Virus record (IMG/VR): IMGVR_UViG_2703718806_000011
Span: 1-8,790 of that record
Origin: a virus
Lineage: Duplodnaviria > Heunggongvirae > Uroviricota > Caudoviricetes
DNA length: 8,790 nucleotides
Reading direction: 5' to 3' (one strand)
Shown here: positions 372 through 8,790 of the stretch, in pieces
Layout of the letters: the number at the start of each line of letters is the position of its first letter
Numbering within the stretch: the first letter of the stretch is position 1
Position numbers and translations under genes: made by a program
The notes under the pieces: model-generated
What the model saw: only the letters and a program-made list of their open reading frames with translations
Databases searched by the model: none
What the model was told of the DNA's origin: nothing

Positions 372-2261
372 TCATAGTGAATCGGTACCACCTGATTTGA
401 CCATACCGCGATAATCCAGAGCTGCCACACCTGCATCAATACGGACTTTCCAGGCCACGCCGTCAACGATAAAACCTTCCTGCTGTTCAAGGTAAGGTTC
501 GTCATTACCATCAAGATAAGCCACCTCGATTGTGTCCGTTCCCTGTGCGGAAAGCATGTACCATTGTTTTTCGCTGATATCATCAAGGCGGGGATCGACG
601 ATGATATCAAGTAGCTTGTGATACGGGTTAAAGATCCCGCTGTTTTTATCAGCCCCGAAAGGTGCGGTTGAGTTAATCATCTGCAACGCGCGATCTTCCA
701 GTGCTGCCGGAACTAAAAGGAATTTAGGCGCAATATTCAGCACTTCGCCATTTTTGTCCTTCTGTGTGCGCATCAGGTGACGTGCTGCACTAAGTCCCGG
801 TGTTGTCAGTCCTGCTTCAATCAGGTTGCTGTGTTTTTTGTCAAACAGCGTTATTCCGTCAGAAAGTTTTACGTTGCCTGTAAGCACCAGATTAACCAGA
901 TTTCCCACCGTTCTTGATGCTGCACGGCCCATAGCCATTGGCACCGTTGATAACTGATCAAGGTCATCATTGATTATCGCCTGGCGGGTAATGCTGAAAA
1001 TATTCCCGTAAGTAGCCAGCGCGATGGGTTCACCGCGATCGCTGGTGGTGATGTATTTATATTCTGCCCCTTCCGGCACTTTGTTTAACGTTGAGAAGCC
1101 ATTCATACCAACGCGGCGGGCTTCCCGGAAGTTTGAAAGGGAACCTTTTTTCGTCCACTGGCGGAATGTTTCGCCACTGTGCTCCCAGCCTGCAAGCACT
1201 GATTTTTCAGCGCCACCAGCAAGGATATCGGTAAAATCGCTGCTGCTGTGGGTGAATGCCGCGTTTACTATCTGCGAGCGTGTGCCGTAGCTGCCCGTGC
1301 TTATACCACGATGGGTTAATGATGCCTGTGCCATATCGAAAAGGCTCATCATGGCGTAAGGATTACCGCGTTCGGCCCGTTCGTGACCAAGACGCGCATT
1401 AAGCCCCTGACGCATGGCATCGCCGGTTATATTGCCGTTATCCGTGTACGCGTAGTAAAGATTTGCGGGGGTGGTTTTGTTTGTTGGCGTTGATTCTTTA
1501 CCCATAGCGAGTAAAAGGCGTTCGCGTGCATTCTCAACGCTACATTCTGAATCCGCAAGACAACTTATAGCCAGGTCGTTATATCTTCCGTTGAAGGTGC
1601 CAAACAATTCACGGATTCCGTTAAGTCGTTCCTGTTCGCCACTGCCAGTTTTCTGGCTGATCATGCTTTTAATTTTTTCCGGCATATTTGAAAAATCTCC
1701 GATTCGTTTTGATTCAATTCGGGCCATTGCTGTAATCGCGGGTATAACCTCATCTGCGAAGCCGTTAGCCTTACACTCATTGCCATCCATCCAGGTTTCC
1801 GCCTCCATCATGGAGGTGATCTCCTGTTTGCTCCTGCCCGTTCTTCCGGCATAGGTTTCTGCCATCGTGTCGCCCAGCTTGTCCATCAGATCAGCAAAGC
1901 GGCGAACGTCGCCCGACACTCCGGCAGTAACACCACGGGGGGCATGTATCATCATCATCGCGTTTTCAGGCATAACGATGTGATCTCCACACATGGCAAT
2001 AAACGACGCCATAGAAGCCGCCATGCCTTCAATGTGTACGATTTTTTTTGCCGGATGATTTTTCAGGGCGTTATAGATAGCCAGCCCTTCAAAGATGTCG
2101 CCACCAGGTGAATGAATGCTCAGATGGATTTCAGACGCATTACCACACGCGTTGATCTCGTCAGTAAGTGCCGATGCTTTTACACCGTACCCGCCGATCT
2201 CGTCATAAATGCGCACATAGACAACATCTGCCATAGCCTTAATGGAAAACCATGTTTTCAT
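372..2261 (-). CDS. Prohead serine protease (ClpP family) fused to HK97-fold major capsid protein, 629 aa
   Basis: N-terminal ~170 aa aligns with ClpP around the catalytic residues: IHSPGGD, GMAASMASFIA (compare ClpP GQAASMGAFLL, catalytic Ser) and MMIHAPRG (compare ClpP VMIHQPLGG, catalytic His). The C-terminal ~400 aa has the length and composition of an HK97-family capsid protein. RBS TAGGAG 8 nt upstream of the ATG at 2261. Confidence 0.85.
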   Translation of the reverse strand: MKTWFSIKAMADVVYVRIYDEIGGYGVKASALTDEINACGNASEIHLSIHSPGGDIFEGLAIYNALKNHPAKKIVHIEGMAASMASFIAMCGDHIVMPENAMMMIHAPRGVTAGVSGDVRRFADLMDKLGDTMAETYAGRTGRSKQEITSMMEAETWMDGNECKANGFADEVIPAITAMARIESKRIGDFSNMPEKIKSMISQKTGSGEQERLNGIRELFGTFNGRYNDLAISCLADSECSVENARERLLLAMGKESTPTNKTTPANLYYAYTDNGNITGDAMRQGLNARLGHERAERGNPYAMMSLFDMAQASLTHRGISTGSYGTRSQIVNAAFTHSSSDFTDILAGGAEKSVLAGWEHSGETFRQWTKKGSLSNFREARRVGMNGFSTLNKVPEGAEYKYITTSDRGEPIALATYGNIFSITRQAIINDDLDQLSTVPMAMGRAASRTVGNLVNLVLTGNVKLSDGITLFDKKHSNLIEAGLTTPGLSAARHLMRTQKDKNGEVLNIAPKFLLVPAALEDRALQMINSTAPFGADKNSGIFNPYHKLLDIIVDPRLDDISEKQWYMLSAQGTDTIEVAYLDGNDEPYLEQQEGFIVDGVAWKVRIDAGVAALDYRGMVKSGGTDSL

Positions 2262-2919: not shown

Positions 2920-3177
2920 TTAAAACGGTATGTTATCCCCGTACGGATCATCGTTACCCGCCACGCTCACCAGTTCGCCTTTGTGGTGTTTTGCCAGTGC
3001 GTCGGCCTGTCTGCCAAACGCCAGGACGGATAACCACATCGTCGCCGTTCCGTCATCGGCCTGGCTGCACGGCAGGGGGATAGCCATACCCGCCATCGCC
3101 ATTTGTGTACCCTTGCTGGTGGTCTTTAACTGTGGGTCAGCCACCAGCCGCCCGTAAGCGGCTATCTGTGCTGTCAT
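2920..3177 (-). CDS. Truncated SSB-like OB-fold protein, 85 aa, ending in an SSB-type acidic C-terminal tip (...DDPYGDNIPF)
   Basis: The N-terminal part resembles the start of E. coli SSB (IAAYGRLVADPQLK vs VILVGNLGQDPEVR; WLSVLAFGRQADALAKHHKGELVSV vs [26 protein letters not shown]), and the last residues DNIPF match the SSB tip DDDIPF. Start overlaps the upstream gene stop (ATGA). Confidence 0.6.
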   Translation of the reverse strand: MTAQIAAYGRLVADPQLKTTSKGTQMAMAGMAIPLPCSQADDGTATMWLSVLAFGRQADALAKHHKGELVSVAGNDDPYGDNIPF

Positions 3178-3443
3178 GATTCCACCTCTCCGGTTTTAAT
3201 GTTGATGGTTGTTACCTGTTCCGCTTCGGCAATCTCCCGTTCTGTCAGCGTGGCAAAGTTTGCCGCCGCTGTGGTCATGAATGCGCTTATCAGTTCGGGA
3301 TGTTCCTTCGCGTATCCTTCCCCCGCGTGGCGGTCTATTACCCTGATTGCTACCTTTAAGGCGTGCTCTGTCATGTCTAACGCTTTATATTTTGGCTCTG
3401 TTCTGTCTCTGCGCATTTTGGTTATCTCCTCACTCATGCTCAC
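3174..3443 (-). CDS. Hypothetical protein, 89 aa (GTG start at 3443; alternative ATG at 3437)
   Basis: Plausible composition; GAGG lies 7 nt upstream of the GTG, inside an ori iteron; coupled to the downstream SSB-like gene by a 4-nt overlap. Confidence 0.5.
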   Translation of the reverse strand: MSMSEEITKMRRDRTEPKYKALDMTEHALKVAIRVIDRHAGEGYAKEHPELISAFMTTAAANFATLTEREIAEAEQVTTINIKTGEVES

Positions 3444-3630
3444 TTTTGCGCCTCACTTTTTAAAGCGTCTCGCTTCGTCTCACTTGATATTTTTGATGTT
3501 TTTATGTGCATGTTTCATAAGGATTTTTTACTCCTCACTTTTTGGGGTATATATACGTTGAAAAGTGAGGAGTTCAGGGGGTTTTTCGTGCAATTCCTCA
3601 TTGTCCTCACTTTTGCGCCTCACTTTTTAC
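3429..3630. repeat. Putative origin of replication: iterons of consensus CCTCACTTTT around an AT-rich core
   Basis: The 23-bp unit CTCACTTTTGCGCCTCACTTTTT occurs at 3439-3461 and 3606-3628. A perfect 12-bp inverted repeat CTCCTCACTTTT (3531-3542) / AAAAGTGAGGAG (3561-3572) flanks a TATATATA spacer. Partial copies at 3429-3435, 3477-3486 and 3596-3603. AT-rich stretch 3481-3530. Lies immediately 3' of the replication gene. Confidence 0.55.
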
Positions 3631-5036
3631 AGAGGGCCTACATCATCACCGTCGATATAAATAACCCCGTCTTTTTCCAGCTTGCGTAGCCAGCGGCTGA
3701 AGTTTTTCATTTCGTACCCCAGCTTTTTCATATCGTCACGTAACAGCGGGATCGTGCACTTGTCGCCGTGCTGTGTGCGTGACCGGATACATCCCCATAG
3801 CGCAGCATGATTCTCCGTCTTGTTGCCAGCCTCTTCGATGCGCTCCAGTTCAACGGGAGGACGCGGCTTATCCACCACCACCAGCGACGTGATTAACTCC
3901 CCGTCAGCGTCGGTAAAAAGCTCCACCACCCGCAAATCATAGGCAGCCTCTTTGAGTTCCTCCGCGTCCTTCATTTTGGTGCATGAGATAACCAGCGCTT
4001 CGCTTCCTGCGTCCTCCCTGCGTATCCGGTATTCAGCGTCCAGTGATGCACGAAATGCACTGGAACCACGCGCCCCCTTTGTTTCATCCTTGCCGGAATG
4101 GTGAACCACCAGCACCGTAGCCCCTGTGCGCCGTTTAAGCTCGTCACAACCACGGATAAATGCCCCCATGTCGCGGGAGTCATTTTCATCATTGCCGCCA
4201 AAGCAACGCGCCAGCGTGTCCAGAATAATCATGCGAACAGGTTTACCCGTTTCCCTCTCCACCTGACTGGCAGCAATAACCAGTTCATCAACATCAAGCG
4301 GGACAGCCGGAAAGATGGGACGGTTTACCAGATACAGATTTTTCACCTGCTCACCGTGCACAACCTCCCAGGCTTTTACACGACGCGGAACGCCGATACC
4401 GCCTTCACCAACCACATAGAGAACAGCGCCATGCGCCACCCTGCGGCCTCCCCACTGGCGGCCCGTGGAAACGTGACACGCCCACGATCCGGCAAGGAAT
4501 GATTTATAGGAACCGCTCGCCCCGTATATGCTGCAAAGCGACGATGCCGGAATAATCCCCTTTACCACGTAATCAAGCTGTGTGTCGTATCCGGTAGATC
4601 CAACGCTCATCGGTAGCTTGGTTTTTCGCTGGGGGATTTTTTTCATGACCAGGCTTTCCCCGCGTTCCCATGCCTCCCTAAGCCGTGGAAGCTGGTCGCT
4701 CCATTCCTCCAGCAATTCGAAATTTTCAGAAAGTAGCCGCGCCTCCTGGACTCCGGCGATCGCCAGTTTCGTGGCGATGGTTAACAGCTGCGGCTCTTCA
4801 ATATTTCCGGCGCGTATCACCGTCGCCCTGTATCGCCCATCATCAACAATCTGGAGGTTATCCAGTTCGCTTAACTGATAACGCCCCAGATAAACGGGAG
4901 GGACTGGATCGCCTGCTTTTTTGGCCTGTGCAATGATGTAATGCTCTGCGAATGAGTGAGCATCAATACCCGCAAAAATAATCGCATCGGTGTATTTATC
5001 TTTCGGTAATCGTTTTACGTTCGGTGCCAGTTTCAT
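3627..5036 (-). CDS. Replication protein with a RepA/DnaB-like (RecA-fold) ATPase domain, 469 aa; primase/helicase-type satellite replication initiator
   Basis: P-loop-like IYGASGSYKSF, Walker B-like RMIILD, and HHSGKD, as in RepA-like helicase domains (from memory, unverified). AGGGG lies 6 nt upstream of the ATG at 5036. Start overlaps the upstream gene stop (ATGA). Confidence 0.8.
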   Translation of the reverse strand: MKLAPNVKRLPKDKYTDAIIFAGIDAHSFAEHYIIAQAKKAGDPVPPVYLGRYQLSELDNLQIVDDGRYRATVIRAGNIEEPQLLTIATKLAIAGVQEARLLSENFELLEEWSDQLPRLREAWERGESLVMKKIPQRKTKLPMSVGSTGYDTQLDYVVKGIIPASSLCSIYGASGSYKSFLAGSWACHVSTGRQWGGRRVAHGAVLYVVGEGGIGVPRRVKAWEVVHGEQVKNLYLVNRPIFPAVPLDVDELVIAASQVERETGKPVRMIILDTLARCFGGNDENDSRDMGAFIRGCDELKRRTGATVLVVHHSGKDETKGARGSSAFRASLDAEYRIRREDAGSEALVISCTKMKDAEELKEAAYDLRVVELFTDADGELITSLVVVDKPRPPVELERIEEAGNKTENHAALWGCIRSRTQHGDKCTIPLLRDDMKKLGYEMKNFSRWLRKLEKDGVIYIDGDDVGPL

Positions 5037-5332
5037 TTTTTACCCCTGAATCCGTTAATCATGGTTTTCAGCTTCTGGATGTTTGCCCGTGCCCTGGCGT
5101 TGCTGGTGGGCACGTTATGCGGCGCGGTCTGTACCAGAGAAAAATCACGCCGGAACTGATAAACAGGCATCACGCAATCATATTCGTAACCTTCACGGCG
5201 GTAAGTTACGCACCGTCCCGCCACGCCCTTAATCATTACCGTGCCGCCGTACTGGTCGCGGTAAATATCACCGCGCGTAAATTTAGGGTGAGTGTTGCCA
5301 CTGGCAGTTAAGCCAGAATATTTAAGTTTCAT
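5033..5332 (-). CDS. Hypothetical protein, 99 aa; resembles small conserved proteins found beside replication genes in P4-like prophages
   Basis: ORF-track protein with GDIYRDQYGGTVMIKGVAGRCVTYRREGYEYDCV, probably beta-rich. GGAG upstream of the ATG at 5332. Last gene of the small-gene operon before rep. Confidence 0.6.
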   Translation of the reverse strand: MKLKYSGLTASGNTHPKFTRGDIYRDQYGGTVMIKGVAGRCVTYRREGYEYDCVMPVYQFRRDFSLVQTAPHNVPTSNARARANIQKLKTMINGFRGKK

Positions 5333-5337
5333 TATTT

Positions 5338-5571
5338 TTATTCTCCGGTGTGCTGTTCGTTATATCTGTCGTGCAATTGGTCTATTTCTTGTAGTTCCAT
5401 TATTACAGGCTCAAGAAGCGTTATTAATGCCGTGACAATTCTTGATTTTTGTTTGTCGCGTTCATTGTCGCCAAGTGTTTCAAGCCATATGCGCAATATT
5501 TCCAGCATGTTTTCACTGTGAGAAAGTGCAATAAATGCGCGGTCTATTGTTTCAAGGTAAATATCACGCAT
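5338..5571 (-). CDS. Hypothetical small protein, 77 aa, predicted helical
   Basis: AGGGGG then TAAT before the ATG at 5571; the upstream gene stop TAA is 1 nt before the start. Confidence 0.6.
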   Translation of the reverse strand: MRDIYLETIDRAFIALSHSENMLEILRIWLETLGDNERDKQKSRIVTALITLLEPVIMELQEIDQLHDRYNEQHTGE

Positions 5572-5572
5572 A

Positions 5573-5794
5573 TTACCCCCTGCCAGACATTTTTCTTAAA
5601 TCAGATTCAGCAATATATTCCGCATAATCGGCAGTAATATTCAGTACGTCTATTCCAGTTGATTTATATTCTTTCGTGCCAAGTAAGAAAAATGCCGCTC
5701 TTATCAGTTCGGATATTGACGAAAGCGCATCACCTGCATCATCAGGCGCACCATCAAATTCCTTTTTCAGGGAATTAAAACGATCATCACGCAT
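5573..5794 (-). CDS. Hypothetical small acidic protein, 73 aa from the favoured start at 5794 (ORF track start 5842 gives 89 aa)
   Basis: The internal ATG at 5794 is preceded by the G8 tract that also encodes the C-terminal glycines of the upstream gene, and overlaps that gene's stop (ATGCGTGA). The longer N-terminal extension is hydrophobic and has no Shine-Dalgarno. Confidence 0.5.
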   Translation of the reverse strand: MRDDRFNSLKKEFDGAPDDAGDALSSISELIRAAFFLLGTKEYKSTGIDVLNITADYAEYIAESDLRKMSGRG

Positions 5795-6008
5795 AACCCC
5801 CCCCATTTTCACAATCAGCAACAAGAATATTTTTAGCGTCATTCAGCGACCGCGTGGCGGTGTATCGGATACATTCCAGGGCGAACGATGTGTATTCTTC
5901 CCGTTCTTCCTTTCGTGCAAGCTCTGCTGTGCATTCAATATCAATAAGCGCGTGCATCAGCGTAGTGAGTGCGGCGGCGGCTGCGTCCGGTGTGGTTTTA
6001 TTGCACAT
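5787..6008 (-). CDS. Hypothetical small acidic protein, 73 aa from the favoured start at 6008 (ORF track start 6062 gives 91 aa)
   Basis: GGAGGGG lies about 4 nt upstream of the ATG at 6008; the ATG at 6062 has no Shine-Dalgarno. C-terminus ...ENGGGYA. Confidence 0.5.
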   Translation of the reverse strand: MCNKTTPDAAAAALTTLMHALIDIECTAELARKEEREEYTSFALECIRYTATRSLNDAKNILVADCENGGGYA

Positions 6009-6228
6009 GTACCCCTCCGCATTTTTTTTCGTTAGAAATAAGCGTTCTTCTTTCCTGTTCATCGCTCAGGAATACGCAGACCTCACCGCTAAGGCGTTTA
6101 AGTAAGCCGATGATTGCCCCTGATTCGCTGTCGGTCATCATGCCAGGGTAATCCTCTGCCAGTGCGCAAATAACTTCGATTTGGTGGGCGCGTTCTGCTG
6201 CCTGTTGTAGTGTGATTTCCTGGCTCAT
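5998..6228 (-). CDS. Hypothetical small protein, 76 aa from the favoured start at 6228 (ORF track start 6285 gives 95 aa)
   Basis: AGGAGG lies 8 nt upstream of the ATG at 6228, which overlaps the upstream gene stop (ATGA). The longer form would begin inside the upstream gene with a Cys-rich, implausible N-terminus. Confidence 0.55.
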   Translation of the reverse strand: MSQEITLQQAAERAHQIEVICALAEDYPGMMTDSESGAIIGLLKRLSGEVCVFLSDEQERRTLISNEKKCGGVHVQ

Positions 6229-6419
6229 AAGCCTACCTCCTGACGAATACGGGCGGCAAATACAGCAACACAACCGGACGGGCAACGGCTACGCGCTTCG
6301 CGTTCCGTCCAGGCGGTTACGTGGATGATTTGAGATTCTCCGGCACTCAGTGCCAGAAAACGCCACATAAAGGCAGTTTGTGTGTGTACAAGGTGTGGTA
6401 TATGATTTACGGCAACCAT
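6225..6419 (-). CDS. Small protein, 64 aa, first gene of the early operon; possibly Icd-like (host cell-division inhibitor family common in P4-like prophages)
   Basis: Strong RBS GAGGAG 6 nt upstream of the ATG at 6419. The Icd-like assignment is from memory of the family pattern (aromatic-R-F-L-A-L core) and is unverified. Confidence 0.55.
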   Translation of the reverse strand: MVAVNHIPHLVHTQTAFMWRFLALSAGESQIIHVTAWTEREARSRCPSGCVAVFAARIRQEVGL

Positions 6420-6450
6420 AACGGCTCCTCGTTTACGTTGTTGGTTAGAA

Positions 6451-6491
6451 GCCCTGCGAGTGGTAACGACACTTGCGGGGCTTTGCTTTTT
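6451..6491 (+). terminator. Terminator-like hairpin plus U-tract on the plus strand; role unclear
   Basis: GCCCTGCGAGTG (6451-6462), loop GTAACGA, CACTTGCGGGGC (6470-6481), then TTTGCTTTTT. Two G-U pairs are allowed only in the plus-strand RNA; in the minus-strand RNA they become C-A mismatches. Confidence 0.3.
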
Positions 6492-6508
6492 ACTGTACCT
6501 ACTGATAT

Positions 6509-6552
6509 TGTACGTACGTAACGGAAATGATAATAGGAGTTACGTACGTACA
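6509..6552. promoter_or_regulatory. Palindromic operator: perfect 14-bp inverted repeat TGTACGTACGTAAC / GTTACGTACGTACA, arms separated by 16 bp
   Basis: Arms at 6509-6522 and 6539-6552. Each arm contains the self-complementary 10-mer TACGTACGTA, with copies 30 bp centre to centre. Overlaps both the early promoter and the RHH translation start. Confidence 0.6.
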
Positions 6553-6558
6553 TGTCAA
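6530..6558 (-). promoter_or_regulatory. Near-consensus sigma70 promoter for the minus-strand early operon
   Basis: On the minus strand: -35 TTGACA (6558-6553), 17-bp spacer, -10 TATTAT (6535-6530). Predicted transcription start near 6523, about 100 nt upstream of the first operon gene at 6419. Confidence 0.55.
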
Positions 6559-6743
6559 CATTAAAGCGCGATAAATCGCCACGCGGTGAGGGATGGTCTC
6601 CAACCTTCCAAATCAGAATCAGTAAAGAGCTACGCCAACAAGTAAATGAAGCTGCAACTTCTGACGGTCTAACCCTTGGTAACTGGTTTAAAGAATTAGC
6701 CAGGGCAGAACTAAAGCGGCGCGGCATAGAACCCAAAGGGTAA
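6552..6743 (+). CDS. Ribbon-helix-helix (Arc/CopG-like) DNA-binding protein, 63 aa; candidate repressor of the early operon
   Basis: Strand-helix-helix pattern FQIRISKELRQQVNEAATSDGLTLGNWFKELARAEL. The only convincing plus-strand gene, divergent from the early operon. AGGAG lies 12 nt upstream of the ATG, which sits inside the operator and the spacer of the opposing promoter. Confidence 0.6.
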   Translation: MSTLKRDKSPRGEGWSPTFQIRISKELRQQVNEAATSDGLTLGNWFKELARAELKRRGIEPKG

Positions 6744-6834
6744 TTACATTGCCCACCAGCCTGATAGCGGCTATCATTCCCGTGCTTATGTTTGGGATCA
6801 CATACACATAAGGCGCAGCAGGTTAATTGTTCAG

Positions 6835-6867
6835 AAAGGCGGCTCCATATCGGGGCCGCTTTTTTTA
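6835..6867 (+). terminator. Rho-independent terminator downstream of the RHH gene; may also stop convergent alpA transcription
   Basis: AGGCGGC ... GCCGC stem followed by TTTTTTT (6861-6867). Confidence 0.5.
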
Positions 6868-7007
6868 TGCCTGAAAAACCCCAATTTTGTTGTTTTTCAG
6901 TTTCACCAGGGCGAACGAATCCCCGCCCACGTTCGGGCGCATATTCAATCTTCATGGTTATATCTCTGTATTAGTGGATGTGTGGCGACTGTGTGCCGCC
7001 AGTCTTT

Positions 7008-7196
7008 TTAGTGAACTGCCTTGCAGCTATCCTTCCAGGCCAAAACCTCAGATAAAGACCAGCCAACAGAACGCCCGCCAAGTTTACGACGTGATGGGAA
7101 TTGTCCGGCCTTTTCCAGGCGGTAGCGGCATGAGCGGCTAAGGCCTGTTAGCTTTTCGCATTCTTTTTCACGTATAAACCGATCAGTGCTTAACAC
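7008..7196 (-). CDS. alpA: AlpA-family (excisionase-like, MerR-type) phage transcriptional regulator, 62 aa, GTG start
   Basis: ...EKLTGLSRSCRYRLEKAGQFPSRRKLGGRSVGWSLSEVLAWK matches the AlpA helix-turn-helix pattern. AAGGGGG lies about 4 nt upstream of the GTG at 7196. Confidence 0.8.
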   Translation of the reverse strand: MLSTDRFIREKECEKLTGLSRSCRYRLEKAGQFPSRRKLGGRSVGWSLSEVLAWKDSCKAVH

Positions 7197-7560: not shown

Positions 7561-8790
7561 TTATTTTATTCTGGTTACTGGTAGCGTGGTTACGTTTTCA
7601 TGTGCTCCCGCCAGTATCCCTAACCGCTCCGTCCACATATCCAGCGCATCACGTTTCGCATCGAGATAACGGGAGTGGTTATAGACTCGTTGCATCCCTG
7701 GCATCTGATGACCTGTAAGCTGCTCCACGACGTGAGGATCCACGCCCAAATCATTCAGCATCGTTGTAAAGGTGCGCCGGATGTCATGCAATGACCATTG
7801 AGGGTGTTTTAGCCTCCTGTGCGCTAATCTGCCGTACTGCGATACGCTGGCCTCCTGTTTCACTTCCCCCAGTAATAAGCCCGTGTGCCTGTTCTGGTCC
7901 ACCAGCCGCGTGACGAACGGCAGGATCGCTTCCGGTATGGGCCGGAATATTGCAACCTTCGTTTTGCTGTGCTCCTTCGGAACGGTCCATAGCATTTCGG
8001 TAAAATCCCACTCGCTGATCTCCGATAACCTCAGTTCTACCGTCCTGGCTCCGAAGACAATCAGGAGGCGGATTAACGCGACGTAGTAAGGAGAAAATAT
8101 TTTTTTATCCAGCGCCTGCAATAACTCGCCCAGTTCTTTGGTGCTTAAGACACGTTCGCTTATATCCGGTTTTTTCCCAACGTCCGCCACGTTCAGATCG
8201 TCCAGAACGTTGCTGATTGCATAGCGCCGCCTACGGCAGAATTTAAGCGCCTGTTTGCATGTCTGTAGCAAGAATCCGGCAGTAACAGGTGTTCGCTTTG
8301 CCACCTGATCAAAACAGGCCAGCCAGTGCCGTAGCTCGCATTTATCCAGCGGCATAGCACCAATTTTGATGATTATGTTTTTATTGATCCGGCTTTTCAG
8401 TGATTCGTAATCTGTGCGCTTTTCCTTTGCGTACGACTCAAGCCAGTAGGTGAGCGCATCGCCAACCGTTGCAGGCTTTAACGCTTCCTGCATGGTGTAA
8501 TTCAGTTCATAGCGTGGATTTTTCCCCTCAGCCAGCCATGCGCGACACTGTGCGGCTTTTTCCCTGGCTGCTTTCAGGCTCAGATCGGGATAATTTCCCA
8601 GCTTAACGCGTTCAGGTTGTGTCCCTCTTCCCGTTCCGGCCCTGTATGTGAAATACCAGGTTAAAAGGCCGCTGGTTGAATGCCTGACGCTCAGGTTTCC
8701 ACCGTCATTAAGAAAGGCTGTTTTTTGGGCGGGTGTGCCGTTGATTTTCCTTAGCTGTGTGTCACTCAGTTTGTTAAGTGCTCTGCTCAT
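7561..8790 (-). CDS. int: P4-type tyrosine integrase (site-specific recombinase), 409 aa
   Basis: N-terminal arm-binding-type region (LSDTQLRKINGTPAQKTAFLNDGGNLSV...), and C-terminal catalytic motifs HDIRRT (HxxR) and GHQ...VYNHSRY (catalytic Tyr). The ATG is the last three bases of the window (8788-8790). Confidence 0.9.
   Translation of the reverse strand: MSRALNKLSDTQLRKINGTPAQKTAFLNDGGNLSVRHSTSGLLTWYFTYRAGTGRGTQPERVKLGNYPDLSLKAAREKAAQCRAWLAEGKNPRYELNYTMQEALKPATVGDALTYWLESYAKEKRTDYESLKSRINKNIIIKIGAMPLDKCELRHWLACFDQVAKRTPVTAGFLLQTCKQALKFCRRRRYAISNVLDDLNVADVGKKPDISERVLSTKELGELLQALDKKIFSPYYVALIRLLIVFGARTVELRLSEISEWDFTEMLWTVPKEHSKTKVAIFRPIPEAILPFVTRLVDQNRHTGLLLGEVKQEASVSQYGRLAHRRLKHPQWSLHDIRRTFTTMLNDLGVDPHVVEQLTGHQMPGMQRVYNHSRYLDAKRDALDMWTERLGILAGAHENVTTLPVTRIK

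What the first reader, a model, noticed from the sequence alone, without database searches (positions are those of the whole stretch)
5033..6419. Six tightly coupled small genes (64-99 aa) between the switch and the replication gene
Six ORFs are packed head to tail, with stop/start overlaps (ATGA, ATGCGTGA) or 1-5 nt gaps and a Shine-Dalgarno inside the preceding coding sequence in each case. They are driven by the near-consensus promoter at 6530-6558, so they would be the first products made on derepression. Only the first has a tentative family resemblance (Icd-like); the others are small, mostly acidic and helical with no recognisable motifs. In satellites this position usually holds host-takeover, helper-interference or anti-defence functions, so this is the most likely place for undescribed biology in the window.
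Basis: partly seen in the sequence, partly recalled or inferred. Interest (0 to 1): 0.6.

Follow-up and report, generated by a model that had tools for sequence, protein, structure and literature searches.

The report
Early small-gene cassette of a PICI satellite
The six tightly packed small genes are real and are the same uncharacterised early cassette found in the model E. coli phage satellite EcCICFT073: it starts with a Kil/Icd-type growth-arrest gene, ends with a small protein coupled to the replication gene, and carries two unreported features, a likely antisense RNA over the first gene and slippage-prone base runs that split or fuse the middle genes.

Summary
Six minus-strand ORFs (64, 76, 73, 73, 77 and 99 aa) fill 5033-6419 with overlaps or gaps of 1-5 nt. 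All six match PHROG families, are annotated in relatives, and evolve under purifying selection.

The cassette is not new. The same genes in the same order lie between alpA and the primase of the model PICI EcCICFT073, and parts of it occur in 1428 of 5426 complete E. coli genomes.

- **g1** belongs to the Icd-like family, as does Kil of satellite P4, and like kil it is the first gene of the early operon.
- **g6** is DUF4222, predicted to be an SH3/KOW-like barrel with a basic helix. It is always ATGA-coupled to a replicase, whichever of three replicase types follows.
- **g2-g5** are acidic helical proteins of unknown function. g3 and g4 are the two halves of a common 144-154 aa protein, split here by a G8 run. 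An A8 run plays the same role at the g2/g3 junction.
- **Antisense element:** a conserved plus-strand terminator hairpin (6448-6484) and a -10-like motif inside g1 suggest an ~80-nt antisense RNA over g1's ribosome-binding site.

The closest functional data are from ECOR61, where a locus with the same gene sizes and overlaps as a relative of this cassette causes phage-triggered growth arrest. Functions of g2-g6 remain inferred.

The parts
6530..6558 (-). Sigma-70 promoter of the cassette (TTGACA, 17-nt spacer, TATTAT); transcription start expected near 6523
   Evidence: 11 of 12 consensus positions. Sequence.
6509..6552 (.). Two 14-nt inverted-repeat operators (6509-6522 and 6539-6552, core TACGTACGTA) bracketing the -10. 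The ATG of the divergent RHH gene (6552) abuts one of them.
   Evidence: repeats. (the RHH protein gives weak HicB, Arc and YlcI/YnfO matches).
6420..6523 (-). About 104-nt 5' leader of the operon, with the g1 Shine-Dalgarno GAGGAG at 6425-6430
   Evidence: No Rfam family matches on either strand, whereas C4 and isrK are found in P4, L010 and L012.
6378..6494 (+). Candidate cis-antisense RNA unit: -35-like TTGTGT 6378-6383, -10-like TATGAT 6401-6406, predicted start near 6413, then the complement of the g1 start codon and Shine-Dalgarno, GGTTAGA, a 15-bp hairpin at 6448-6484 and a T-run to about 6494
   Evidence: scored as a plus-strand terminator.: -27.6 kcal/mol on plus versus -16.3 on minus; 47 of 48 sequence variants fold better on plus; covariation at 4 pairs and many G-U pairs; a -10-like hexamer in all 48 variants at a fixed 36-38 nt from the hairpin. 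The promoter is weak by consensus (8 of 12), and the RNA itself is not shown.
6225..6419 (-). g1: Icd-like protein of the same family as P4 Kil, 64 aa, basic (pI 9.0)
   Evidence: NF033153, 1e-17, 63.9 bits against a cut-off of 25. phrog_1743. P4 Kil hits the same NCBIfam and PHROG models. 97% identical to the Icd-like protein of O157:H7 locus L013.
5998..6228 (-). g2: 76 aa, acidic; phrog_1478
   Evidence: 100% identical to the EcCICFT073 protein. 52% identical to the 63-aa gene of L013 and 41% to a 64-aa early-left gene of Fels-1. The family is narrow: 31 representative clusters among 1.84 billion proteins, with no informative fusions.
6022..6029 (-). A8 run at the g2/g3 junction; A7 fuses g2 to g3
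   Evidence: P0008 is a 221-aa g2-g3-g4 fusion seen on 52 contigs. A8 in 11 and A7 in 1 of 12 copies of this junction, window included.
5787..6008 (-). g3: 73 aa, acidic; N-terminal half of the phrog_2512 family
5797..5804 (-). G8 run at the g3/g4 junction. It also serves as the Shine-Dalgarno of g4 and, in fused forms, encodes the Gly-Gly linker.
   Evidence: G7 fused; G8 and G9 split; among 89 IMG/VR loci, G8 33, G7 23, G9 18, G10 4, G11 2, interrupted 9; 6 of 10 groups with identical flanks differ in run length.
5573..5794 (-). g4: 73 aa, acidic; C-terminal half of the phrog_2512 family
   Evidence: phrog_2512 positions 78-145, 7e-35..
5338..5571 (-). g5: 77 aa, the most acidic of the six (net charge -8); phrog_2196
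   Evidence: Distant relatives are the 80-aa gene of L013 (E 1e-9) and the 61-aa Fels-1 gene adjacent to the g2-like gene (E 3e-5).
5033..5332 (-). g6: DUF4222 protein, 99 aa, basic (pI 10.2); ATGA-coupled to the replicase
3627..5036 (-). RepA-family helicase (context). Its N-terminal ~90 residues are shared with the primase and DUF927 replicases that follow DUF4222 in other elements.
   Evidence: AAA_25, 2.8e-43. N-terminal sequences compared.

Best explanation
The cassette is the early, regulated operon segment of an EcCICFT073-type Gram-negative PICI satellite. It is laid out like the left operon of satellite P4, where a toxic first gene is followed by small modulators, a replicase-linked small protein and the replicase.

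**What is shown**
- The six genes are real and co-oriented, and they are coupled to each other and to the helicase.
- g1 is an Icd-like protein in the same family as P4 Kil.
- g6 is a DUF4222 protein invariably coupled to the replicase.
- g3 and g4 are a fission form of one protein, and g2 is sometimes fused to them as well.

**What is inferred**
1. On induction, transcription starts at the promoter at 6558-6530. Induction would involve AlpA and/or release of the RHH-type repressor from the TACGTACGTA operators.
2. Translation of g1 is gated by a short plus-strand antisense RNA that covers its ribosome-binding site. This would be a cis-antisense replacement for the CI/C4 immunity RNA that relatives carry and this element has lost.
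3. g1 arrests host division and growth.
4. g2, g3, g4 and g5 act together as a small acidic helical complex that assists or tunes this arrest or a helper or host target. Their gene fusions and conserved adjacency argue for physical cooperation.
5. g6, a basic SH3/KOW-like adaptor, acts with the shared N-terminal domain of the replicase or at the origin.
For: **Identity with the known PICI**
- The same six genes occur in the same order in CFT073. Identities are g2 100%, g6 91%, g3 89%, g5 87%, g4 74% and g1 48%, and the G8 and A8 runs are the same.
- The window also carries a P4-type integrase, AlpA (5e-18), a replicase, and origin-like iterons after the replicase gene.
- The cassette occurs in 1428 of 5426 E. 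coli genomes, upstream of three replicase types.

**Coding status**
-.

**g1 and P4 Kil**
- Both hit NF033153 (1e-17 and 7.8e-21) and phrog_1743, and each is the first ORF of its early operon.
- Kil is described as the cell-killing product of the P4 operon (PMC10111431).

**Fusion and fission**
- The L008 fused 148-aa protein matches phrog_2512 end to end (1e-66).
- There are hundreds of fused clusters, some on more than 200 contigs.
- A g2-g3-g4 fusion and a g3-g5 fusion exist.
- g2-like and g5-like genes are adjacent in phage Fels-1.

**Antisense element**
-.
- C4 and isrK are detected in P4, L010 and L012 but not in the window.

**Functional precedent**
- In ECOR61, transposon insertions that suppress growth arrest triggered by phage orf24 fall in an Icd-like gene and the two small genes after it. 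All six linked genes, including a primase, were needed to rebuild the effect.
- Those gene sizes and overlaps equal those of L013, whose Icd-like protein is 97% identical to g1 and whose 63-aa protein is 52% identical to g2.

**g6**
-.
Against: - No function of g2-g6 was tested anywhere. PADLOC, Pfam, NCBIfam and PDB sequence searches give nothing for g2-g5.
- The AlphaFold2 model of the fused g3-g4 protein is poor (pLDDT 57.6) and has no structural neighbours.
- The small-barrel fold of g6 is generic.
- The antisense promoter has only 8 of 12 consensus matches. Its -10 overlaps a conserved His codon of g1, so coding constraint could explain part of its conservation. No transcript data were available.
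- The ECOR61 sequences could not be retrieved, so equivalence to L013 rests on gene sizes, overlaps and names only. Tn5 insertions there may be polar on the primase.
- The element may be partly decayed: its SSB is only 85 aa.
- Homopolymer length differences could partly be assembly errors.
Confidence: 0.55

Rival explanations
1. The cassette is primarily an abortive-infection or superinfection-exclusion module. An incoming phage protein triggers it, and the Icd-like protein, with g2-type partners and the replicase, arrests or kills the cell, as reported for ECOR61.
For: - Silas et al. (bioRxiv 10.1101/2023.04.06.535777) found suppressor insertions in the Icd-like gene and the two following small genes. 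All six linked genes, including a primase, were needed, and removing the Icd-like gene abolished the effect.
- The gene sizes and overlaps match L013, a relative of this cassette.
- A P4-type prophage in ECOR15 behaves similarly, with insertions in its Icd-like gene.
Against: - The reconstituted effect was described as muted.
- The trigger, orf24, is narrowly distributed.
- The window's middle genes differ: there is no 61-aa gene, and g3 and g4 are present instead.
- There is no PADLOC match.
- Growth arrest may simply be a by-product of satellite induction.
Confidence: 0.2
2. g2-g5 are helper-directed or host-directed takeover or counter-defence proteins that act independently of g1. Examples would be a helper derepressor like P4 epsilon, nuclease inhibitors, or DNA mimics.
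For: - P4 epsilon (helper derepression) sits at the equivalent position.
- The four proteins are small, acidic (pI 4.6-4.8) and helical.
- g2-like and g5-like genes lie in the early-left region of Fels-1 and next to a recombination exonuclease in Klebsiella phages.
- Allele classes are strongly mosaic, as is typical of accessory regions.
Against: - There is no sequence relation to P4 epsilon, orf151 or cnr; they fall in different PHROG families.
- There is no match to known anti-defence or defence families.
- dN/dS of 0.15-0.6 shows no sign of positive selection.
Confidence: 0.15
3. g2, g3 and g4 are a frameshift-decayed single gene in this window. The apparent coupling at those junctions is then an artefact of two homopolymer mutations.
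For: - Fused g3-g4 (144-154 aa) and g2-g3-g4 (221 aa) forms exist and are common.
- The split sites are exactly a G8 run and an A8 run.
- The element has at least one other shortened gene, the SSB.
Against: - Each part keeps its own ATG and Shine-Dalgarno.
- Stand-alone families exist for each part: phrog_1478, phrog_5146 and phrog_24341.
- The split state is the commonest one (G8 in 33 of 89 loci) and is the state in the functional model PICI EcCICFT073.
- The separate parts still show purifying selection.
Confidence: 0.08

Closest known systems
EcCICFT073, the model Gram-negative PICI of E. coli CFT073 (Fillol-Salom et al. 2018, PMC6092414)
   Same: - The order int, alpA, divergent YlcI/YnfO-type gene, Icd-like gene, then g2, g3, g4, g5 and DUF4222 ATGA-coupled to the replicase.
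- g2 is 100% identical, g6 91%, g3 89%, g5 87% and g4 74%.
- The G8 and A8 runs are the same, and the leader hairpin is identical.
   Different: - The replicase is a RepA-type helicase here and a P4-family primase there.
- g1 is a different allele class (48% identity).
- The late region here holds a ClpP-protease/major-capsid fusion instead of the PerC-type region.
- The SSB is shortened here.
Left (early/immunity) operon of satellite phage P4: kil/eta, epsilon, orf151, cnr, alpha
   Same: - The first translated gene is an Icd-like/Kil protein.
- Small proteins follow, then a ~100-aa protein directly before the replicase, with all genes co-oriented after an AlpA/Vis-type gene.
   Different: - There is no CI/C4 RNA or isrK/seqA element in the window.
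- g2-g6 are unrelated to epsilon, orf151 and cnr.
- A divergent RHH gene with operators is present.
- The replicase belongs to a different family.
ECOR61 prophage-encoded growth-arrest locus (Silas et al. 2023 preprint)
   Same: - An Icd-like gene is followed by overlapping small genes and a primase-type gene.
- Sizes and overlaps equal those of L013, a relative sharing the g1, g2, g5 and g6 families with the window.
   Different: - The ECOR61 Icd-like protein has an N-terminal extension (121 aa).
- A 61-aa gene is present there and absent here, and there is no g3/g4 in L013-type loci.
- The ECOR61 sequence itself was not available for comparison.
P1 immI (c4 RNA, icd, ant) and P22 immI (sar antisense RNA over the ant ribosome-binding site); from my own knowledge of these systems
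   Same: A small RNA blocks translation of the first gene of an early operon. In P1 that gene is icd. In P22 the RNA is a short cis-antisense transcript ending in a terminator.
   Different: - Here the RNA is only predicted.
- It is antisense (like sar) but acts on an Icd-like gene (as in P1).
- No antirepressor gene follows.

Membership tests
Icd-like proteins (NCBIfam NF033153), g1 | Score above the curated cut-off of the family model | tested here: met
   63.9 bits against a cut-off of 25, E 1e-17, covering the whole 48-position model. P4 Kil scores 73.9 bits with the same model.
Icd-like proteins (NCBIfam NF033153), g1 | Inhibits host cell division or is lethal when expressed (P1 Icd, P4 Kil) | not testable with these tools
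   Needs expression in E. coli.
Icd-like proteins (NCBIfam NF033153), g1 | Preceded by a C4/CI-type immunity RNA, as in P1 and P4 | tested here: not met
   No Rfam match in the window at E up to 1. C4 and/or isrK are found in P4, L010 and L012 as positive controls.
DUF4222 (Pfam PF13973), g6 | Score above the Pfam gathering threshold | tested here: met
   82.1 bits against a threshold of 27, E 2.1e-23, full domain 1-53.
Gram-negative PICI of EcCICFT073 type | int, alpA and replicase co-oriented, with origin iterons after the replicase gene | tested here: met
   ORFs. AlpA 5e-18 and AAA_25 2.8e-43. CCTCACTTTT iterons at 3439-3632. Relatives lie between phoQ and roxA or between clpS and cspD, and CFT073 also carries its copy beside roxA.
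Gram-negative PICI of EcCICFT073 type | Same early cassette as the type element | tested here: met
Gram-negative PICI of EcCICFT073 type | Induced, packaged and transferred by a helper phage through AlpA | not testable with these tools
   Shown for EcCICFT073 only (PMC6092414).
P4 left operon | Homologues of epsilon, orf151, cnr and alpha | tested here: not met
   The P4 proteins fall in phrog_10016, phrog_10748 and phrog_5991. g2-g6 fall in other families. The replicase here is a RepA helicase.
ECOR61-type growth-arrest system | Icd-like gene plus overlapping small genes plus a primase-type gene | tested here: inconclusive
   The architecture and the g1, g2, g5 and g6 families are shared with L013, whose gene sizes and overlaps equal those listed for ECOR61.
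ECOR61-type growth-arrest system | Toxicity triggered by phage protein orf24 | not testable with these tools
   Experimental.
cis-antisense RNA regulator of a toxic gene (sar-like or type I antitoxin-like) | Strand-specific terminator hairpin opposite the target's 5' end, conserved with compensatory changes | tested here: met
   Mean folding energy -25.7 kcal/mol on plus against -18.3 on minus; 47 of 48 variants fold better on plus. 4 pairs show changes on both sides, and frequent G-U pairs would be A-C mismatches on the other strand.
cis-antisense RNA regulator of a toxic gene (sar-like or type I antitoxin-like) | Own promoter at a fixed distance | tested here: inconclusive
   TAT[GA][AC]T occurs in all 48 variants, 36-38 nt before the hairpin, even though the start codon shifts by 6 nt between allele classes. 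However, the window's -35 is weak and the -10 overlaps a conserved His codon.
cis-antisense RNA regulator of a toxic gene (sar-like or type I antitoxin-like) | The RNA is made and represses the target | not testable with these tools
   Needs Northern blots or dRNA-seq and reporter fusions.
Slippage-prone (contingency-type) homopolymer locus | Long uninterrupted run whose length differs between otherwise identical sequences | tested here: met
   Runs of G7 to G11 in 80 of 89 loci. 6 of 10 groups with identical 500-nt flanks differ in run length. Assembly error cannot be fully excluded.
Slippage-prone (contingency-type) homopolymer locus | The length change switches expression on or off | tested here: not met
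   g4 keeps its own start codon and Shine-Dalgarno in all three frames. The change toggles split and fused forms, not on and off.

The most novel reading that the evidence does not exclude
The cassette is a single regulated device with three unrecognised properties.
1. An ~80-nt cis-antisense RNA is the missing immunity factor of EcCICFT073-type PICIs. It would functionally replace the CI/C4 RNA of P4 and P1 by blocking translation of the Kil/Icd-like first gene, and through polarity it would also reduce expression of the replication genes.
2. g2-g5 are subunits of one complex that works with Kil to arrest the host when a phage is sensed.
3. The G8 and A8 runs give heritable, rapidly reversible switching between split and fused subunit forms, with different activity or specificity.
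Probability: 0.15. Interest if true: 0.7.

Novelty: new member of a known kind. Interest (0 to 1): 0.42.

Why it matters
About a quarter of complete E. coli genomes carry this cassette. It sits in the best-studied Gram-negative PICI, yet none of its genes has an assigned role, and how these satellites stay silent and then switch on is still described as unclear.

This analysis gives concrete handles for experiments:
- g1 can be treated as a Kil/Icd-type arrest protein.
- A defined ~80-nt antisense RNA candidate can be probed directly.
- The gene fusions indicate which small proteins should be tested together.
- DUF4222 can be tested as a partner of the N-terminal domain shared by three replicase types.

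It also links the cassette to the one published phenotype, phage-triggered growth arrest in ECOR61. That link would make these satellites part of the host's anti-phage repertoire.

Tried and rejected
- **DNA search of the phage collection** with the cassette found no match.
- **Protein search of the phage collection** gave only weak hits for g1 and g2.
- **The genome-contig scan with g4** returned only 2 loci, because that collection holds one genome per species. IMG/VR pattern scanning was used instead.
- **BLASTP of g1 against the old P4 cI ORF** gave no alignment. The relation only appears with the HMMs.
- **Rfam on the window** gave nothing credible.
- **Pfam and NCBIfam** gave only sub-threshold noise for g2-g5.
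- **PDB sequence and profile searches** for g1, g2, g5, g6 and the fused g3-g4 found nothing.
- **AlphaFold2 of the fused g3-g4** was of low confidence (pLDDT 57.6), and Foldseek gave no match with E below 0.9. No fold assignment was made.
- **PADLOC** gave no hit.
- **The deep search for g2** showed a narrow family with no informative fusions.
- **The 182-aa minus-strand ORF at 6407-6955** was considered as an Eta/Ash-type N-terminal extension. It was rejected as probably spurious: it has no family and lies antisense to the RHH gene.
- **The large mixed cluster containing g6 and RepA proteins** was judged a clustering artefact.
- **A -1 ribosomal frameshift at the G8 run** was considered. It leads to an early stop. 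Only a +1 shift or loss of one base gives the fusion, and neither could be tested.

Full report
**1. Observation**

The window is a minus-strand-oriented integrative element. Its genes, in order, are:
- integrase, 7561-8790
- AlpA, 7008-7196
- a divergent 63-aa RHH-type gene, 6552-6743 on the plus strand
- the six small genes
- a RepA-family helicase, 3627-5036
- small genes and a shortened SSB
- a ClpP-protease/major-capsid fusion, 372-2261

Reading the minus strand gives g1 6225-6419 (64 aa), g2 5998-6228 (76 aa), g3 5787-6008 (73 aa), g4 5573-5794 (73 aa), g5 5338-5571 (77 aa) and g6 5033-5332 (99 aa).

The junctions are ATGA, an 11-nt overlap, ATGCGTGA, a 1-nt gap, a 5-nt gap, and ATGA into the helicase. 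Each start has a purine-rich Shine-Dalgarno just upstream. The promoter TTGACA-17-TATTAT at 6558-6530 is the best consensus match in the region. Two 14-nt inverted repeats with the core TACGTACGTA bracket its -10. The description is therefore correct, except that one junction is an 11-nt overlap.

**2. They are genes**

- All six hit PHROG families strongly.
- g6 passes Pfam DUF4222.
- PGAP annotates the same reading frames in relatives.
- Against eight to ten related loci, pairwise dN/dS is about 0.15-0.6. For comparison it is 0.08-0.18 for the helicase and at most 0.05 for alpA. In close relatives there are no frame-breaking indels except at one homopolymer run.

**3. What the element is**

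The cassette, or parts of it, occurs in 1428 of 5426 complete E. coli genomes. It lies upstream of three different replicase types: RepA helicase, P4-family primase and DUF927.

It is the cassette of the model PICI EcCICFT073. In CFT073 the order is int, alpA, a divergent YlcI/YnfO-type gene, an Icd-like gene, then proteins 100%, 89%, 74%, 87% and 91% identical to g2-g6, then the primase. In that element AlpA activates the downstream genes, and helper phages induce alpA (PMC6092414). The small genes are drawn as hypothetical, and I found no paper in the held library that assigns them a role.

Across 100 loci the genes occur as discrete allele classes that are shuffled independently. g1 and g6 are nearly always present, while g2 is present in about a fifth of loci.

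**4. g1**

P4's historical "cI ORF" ends with the 65-aa Kil sequence. That sequence hits the same NCBIfam model (7.8e-21) and the same PHROG as g1, although BLASTP alone sees nothing. This also explains the misleading "transcriptional repressor" label of phrog_1743.

Kil is the cell-killing product and first translated gene of the P4 left operon. Translation of that reading frame (eta/kil) prevents termination in the operon (PMC10111431).

The window lacks the CI/C4 and isrK/seqA RNA elements that P4 and relatives L010 and L012 carry. Rfam detects them there as a positive control.

**5.

The 15-bp hairpin at 6448-6484 scores as an intrinsic terminator on the plus strand, that is, antisense to the operon.
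- It folds at -27.6 kcal/mol on the plus strand against -16.3 on the minus strand.
- In 48 distinct sequence variants from relatives it folds better on the plus strand in 47. The means are -25.7 and -18.3 kcal/mol.
- RNAalifold finds 13 pairs. Four show changes on both sides, and frequent G-U pairs would be A-C mismatches on the other strand.
- A T-rich tail follows in most variants.
- Upstream on the same strand, inside g1 codons 5-7, every variant has TAT[GA][AC]T at 36-38 nt from the hairpin. This holds even though the start codon sits 6 nt closer in one allele class, so the leader length compensates.

Together these features predict an RNA of about 80 nt, from near 6413 to near 6494, complementary to the g1 start codon and Shine-Dalgarno. 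The segment occurs in 790 genomes, including CFT073, with no RNA annotated there.

There are caveats. The window's -35 is weak, the -10 overlaps a conserved His codon, and no expression data were available.

**6. g3/g4 and g2/g3**

phrog_2512 (154 positions) matches g3 with its first half and g4 with its second half. In strain NCTC9112 the two are one 148-aa gene that matches the family end to end.

The difference is a G run at 5797-5804:
- G7 or G10 gives a fusion with a Gly-Gly(-Gly) linker.
- G8, as in this window and CFT073, gives the ATGCGTGA overlap.
- G9 gives a 28-nt overlap.

Among 89 IMG/VR loci the run is G8 in 33, G7 in 23, G9 in 18, G10 in 4, G11 in 2 and interrupted in 9. Six of ten groups with identical 500-nt flanks differ in run length. 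The run therefore changes faster than point substitutions accumulate, unless assemblies are wrong. It also serves as g4's Shine-Dalgarno, so g4 can be translated in every state.

An A8 run at 6022-6029 plays the same role between g2 and g3. A7 gives a 221-aa g2-g3-g4 protein seen on 52 contigs. A g3-g5 fusion lacking g4 also exists. g2-like and g5-like genes are adjacent, with an ATGA overlap, in the early-left region of phage Fels-1.

Fusion, fission and conserved adjacency are the evidence that g2-g5 work together. This is an inference, not a demonstration.

**7. g6**

DUF4222 precedes the replicase with the same 4-nt overlap whatever the catalytic type. The three replicase types share their first ~90 residues.

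A role as a replication accessory, analogous in position to P4 Cnr, is inferred from position only. The two proteins are not related.

**8. Closest functional data**

In ECOR61, growth arrest triggered by the phage accessory protein orf24 is suppressed by insertions in an Icd-like gene and the two small genes after it. Rebuilding the effect needed all six linked genes, including a primase, and removing the Icd-like gene abolished it.

The listed gene lengths (366, 186 and 192 nt) and overlaps (8 nt and 1 nt) match O157:H7 locus L013 for the two small genes and both overlaps. The L013 Icd-like gene itself is shorter, at 198 nt. L013's Icd-like protein is 97% identical to g1, its 63-aa protein is 52% identical to g2, and its 80-aa protein is distantly related to g5. 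I could not obtain the ECOR61 sequence, so this equivalence is provisional.

**9. Verdict**

The finding is real and correctly located, but it describes the standard, already catalogued and functionally unassigned early cassette of EcCICFT073-type PICIs. This is a new allele combination of a known kind.

What this analysis adds:
- the assignment of g1 to the family of P4 Kil
- the conserved antisense terminator and RNA candidate
- the homopolymer-driven split and fused states
- the invariant coupling of DUF4222 to the replicase
- the link to the ECOR61 phenotype

The mechanisms proposed for g2-g6 and for the antisense RNA are inferred and need the experiments listed under next steps.

Noticed in passing
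window 6448-6494 (+), with 6401-6406 (+): A conserved intrinsic-terminator hairpin on the strand opposite the operon, plus a conserved -10-like hexamer inside g1. Together they predict an ~80-nt antisense RNA over the g1 ribosome-binding site. No Rfam family covers it, and no RNA is annotated there in the E. coli genomes listed for the search (25 of the 790 that carry it).
   Followed up: yes
window 5797-5804 and 6022-6029 (-): G8 and A8 runs lie exactly at the g3/g4 and g2/g3 junctions. One base fewer fuses the neighbouring genes. The G run ranges from 7 to 11 among relatives and differs between loci with identical flanks.
   Followed up: yes
window 6509-6552: Two 14-nt inverted repeats (TGTACGTACGTAAC / GTTACGTACGTACA), 30 bp apart, bracket the -10 of the operon promoter. 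The start codon of the divergent RHH gene abuts one of them, so this is a likely repressor-operator switch.
   Followed up: partly
window 3439-3632: At least six copies of the iteron CCTCACTTTT, in both orientations, lie directly after the helicase gene. This fits the PICI-type replication origin described for EcCICFT073.
   Followed up: partly
window 2920-3177 (-): The SSB gene is only 85 aa: part of the OB fold plus the C-terminal IPF tip. Relatives have about 137 aa, and a related locus has it flagged as a pseudogene. The element may be partly decayed.
   Followed up: partly
window 372-2261 (-): A single 629-aa ClpP-type prohead protease fused to an HK97-type major capsid protein is the only structural gene in the window. 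That is unusual cargo for a PICI that otherwise resembles EcCICFT073.
   Followed up: no
window 6407-6955 (-); L013 1804-2547: A long ORF antisense to the RHH gene has no family. PGAP annotates its 247-aa version in O157:H7 as a hypothetical protein and, in other strains, as a partial Icd-like protein. It is probably a spurious call over the real plus-strand RHH gene.
   Followed up: partly
window 3627-5036 (-), residues 1-~90; L009 3728-5482; L013 3673-5805: RepA-helicase, P4-type primase and DUF927 replicases of related elements share a common N-terminal region of about 90 aa, always preceded by DUF4222.
   Followed up: partly
window 5571 and 5794 (-); protein P0159: g4 and g5 both begin ATGCGTGAT after a G-rich stretch, and g6 and the helicase both begin ATGAAACT. 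A natural g3-g5 fusion lacks g4. Short junction repeats may mediate cassette shuffling.
   Followed up: no
L010 2702-2887; L012 2885-2972; P4 (L003) 8420-8692: Relatives carry the C4 (CI) immunity RNA (L010, L012 and P4), and L010 and P4 also carry isrK, upstream of or within their Icd-like genes. The window and several other relatives lack both, so immunity mechanisms differ within this family.
   Followed up: partly
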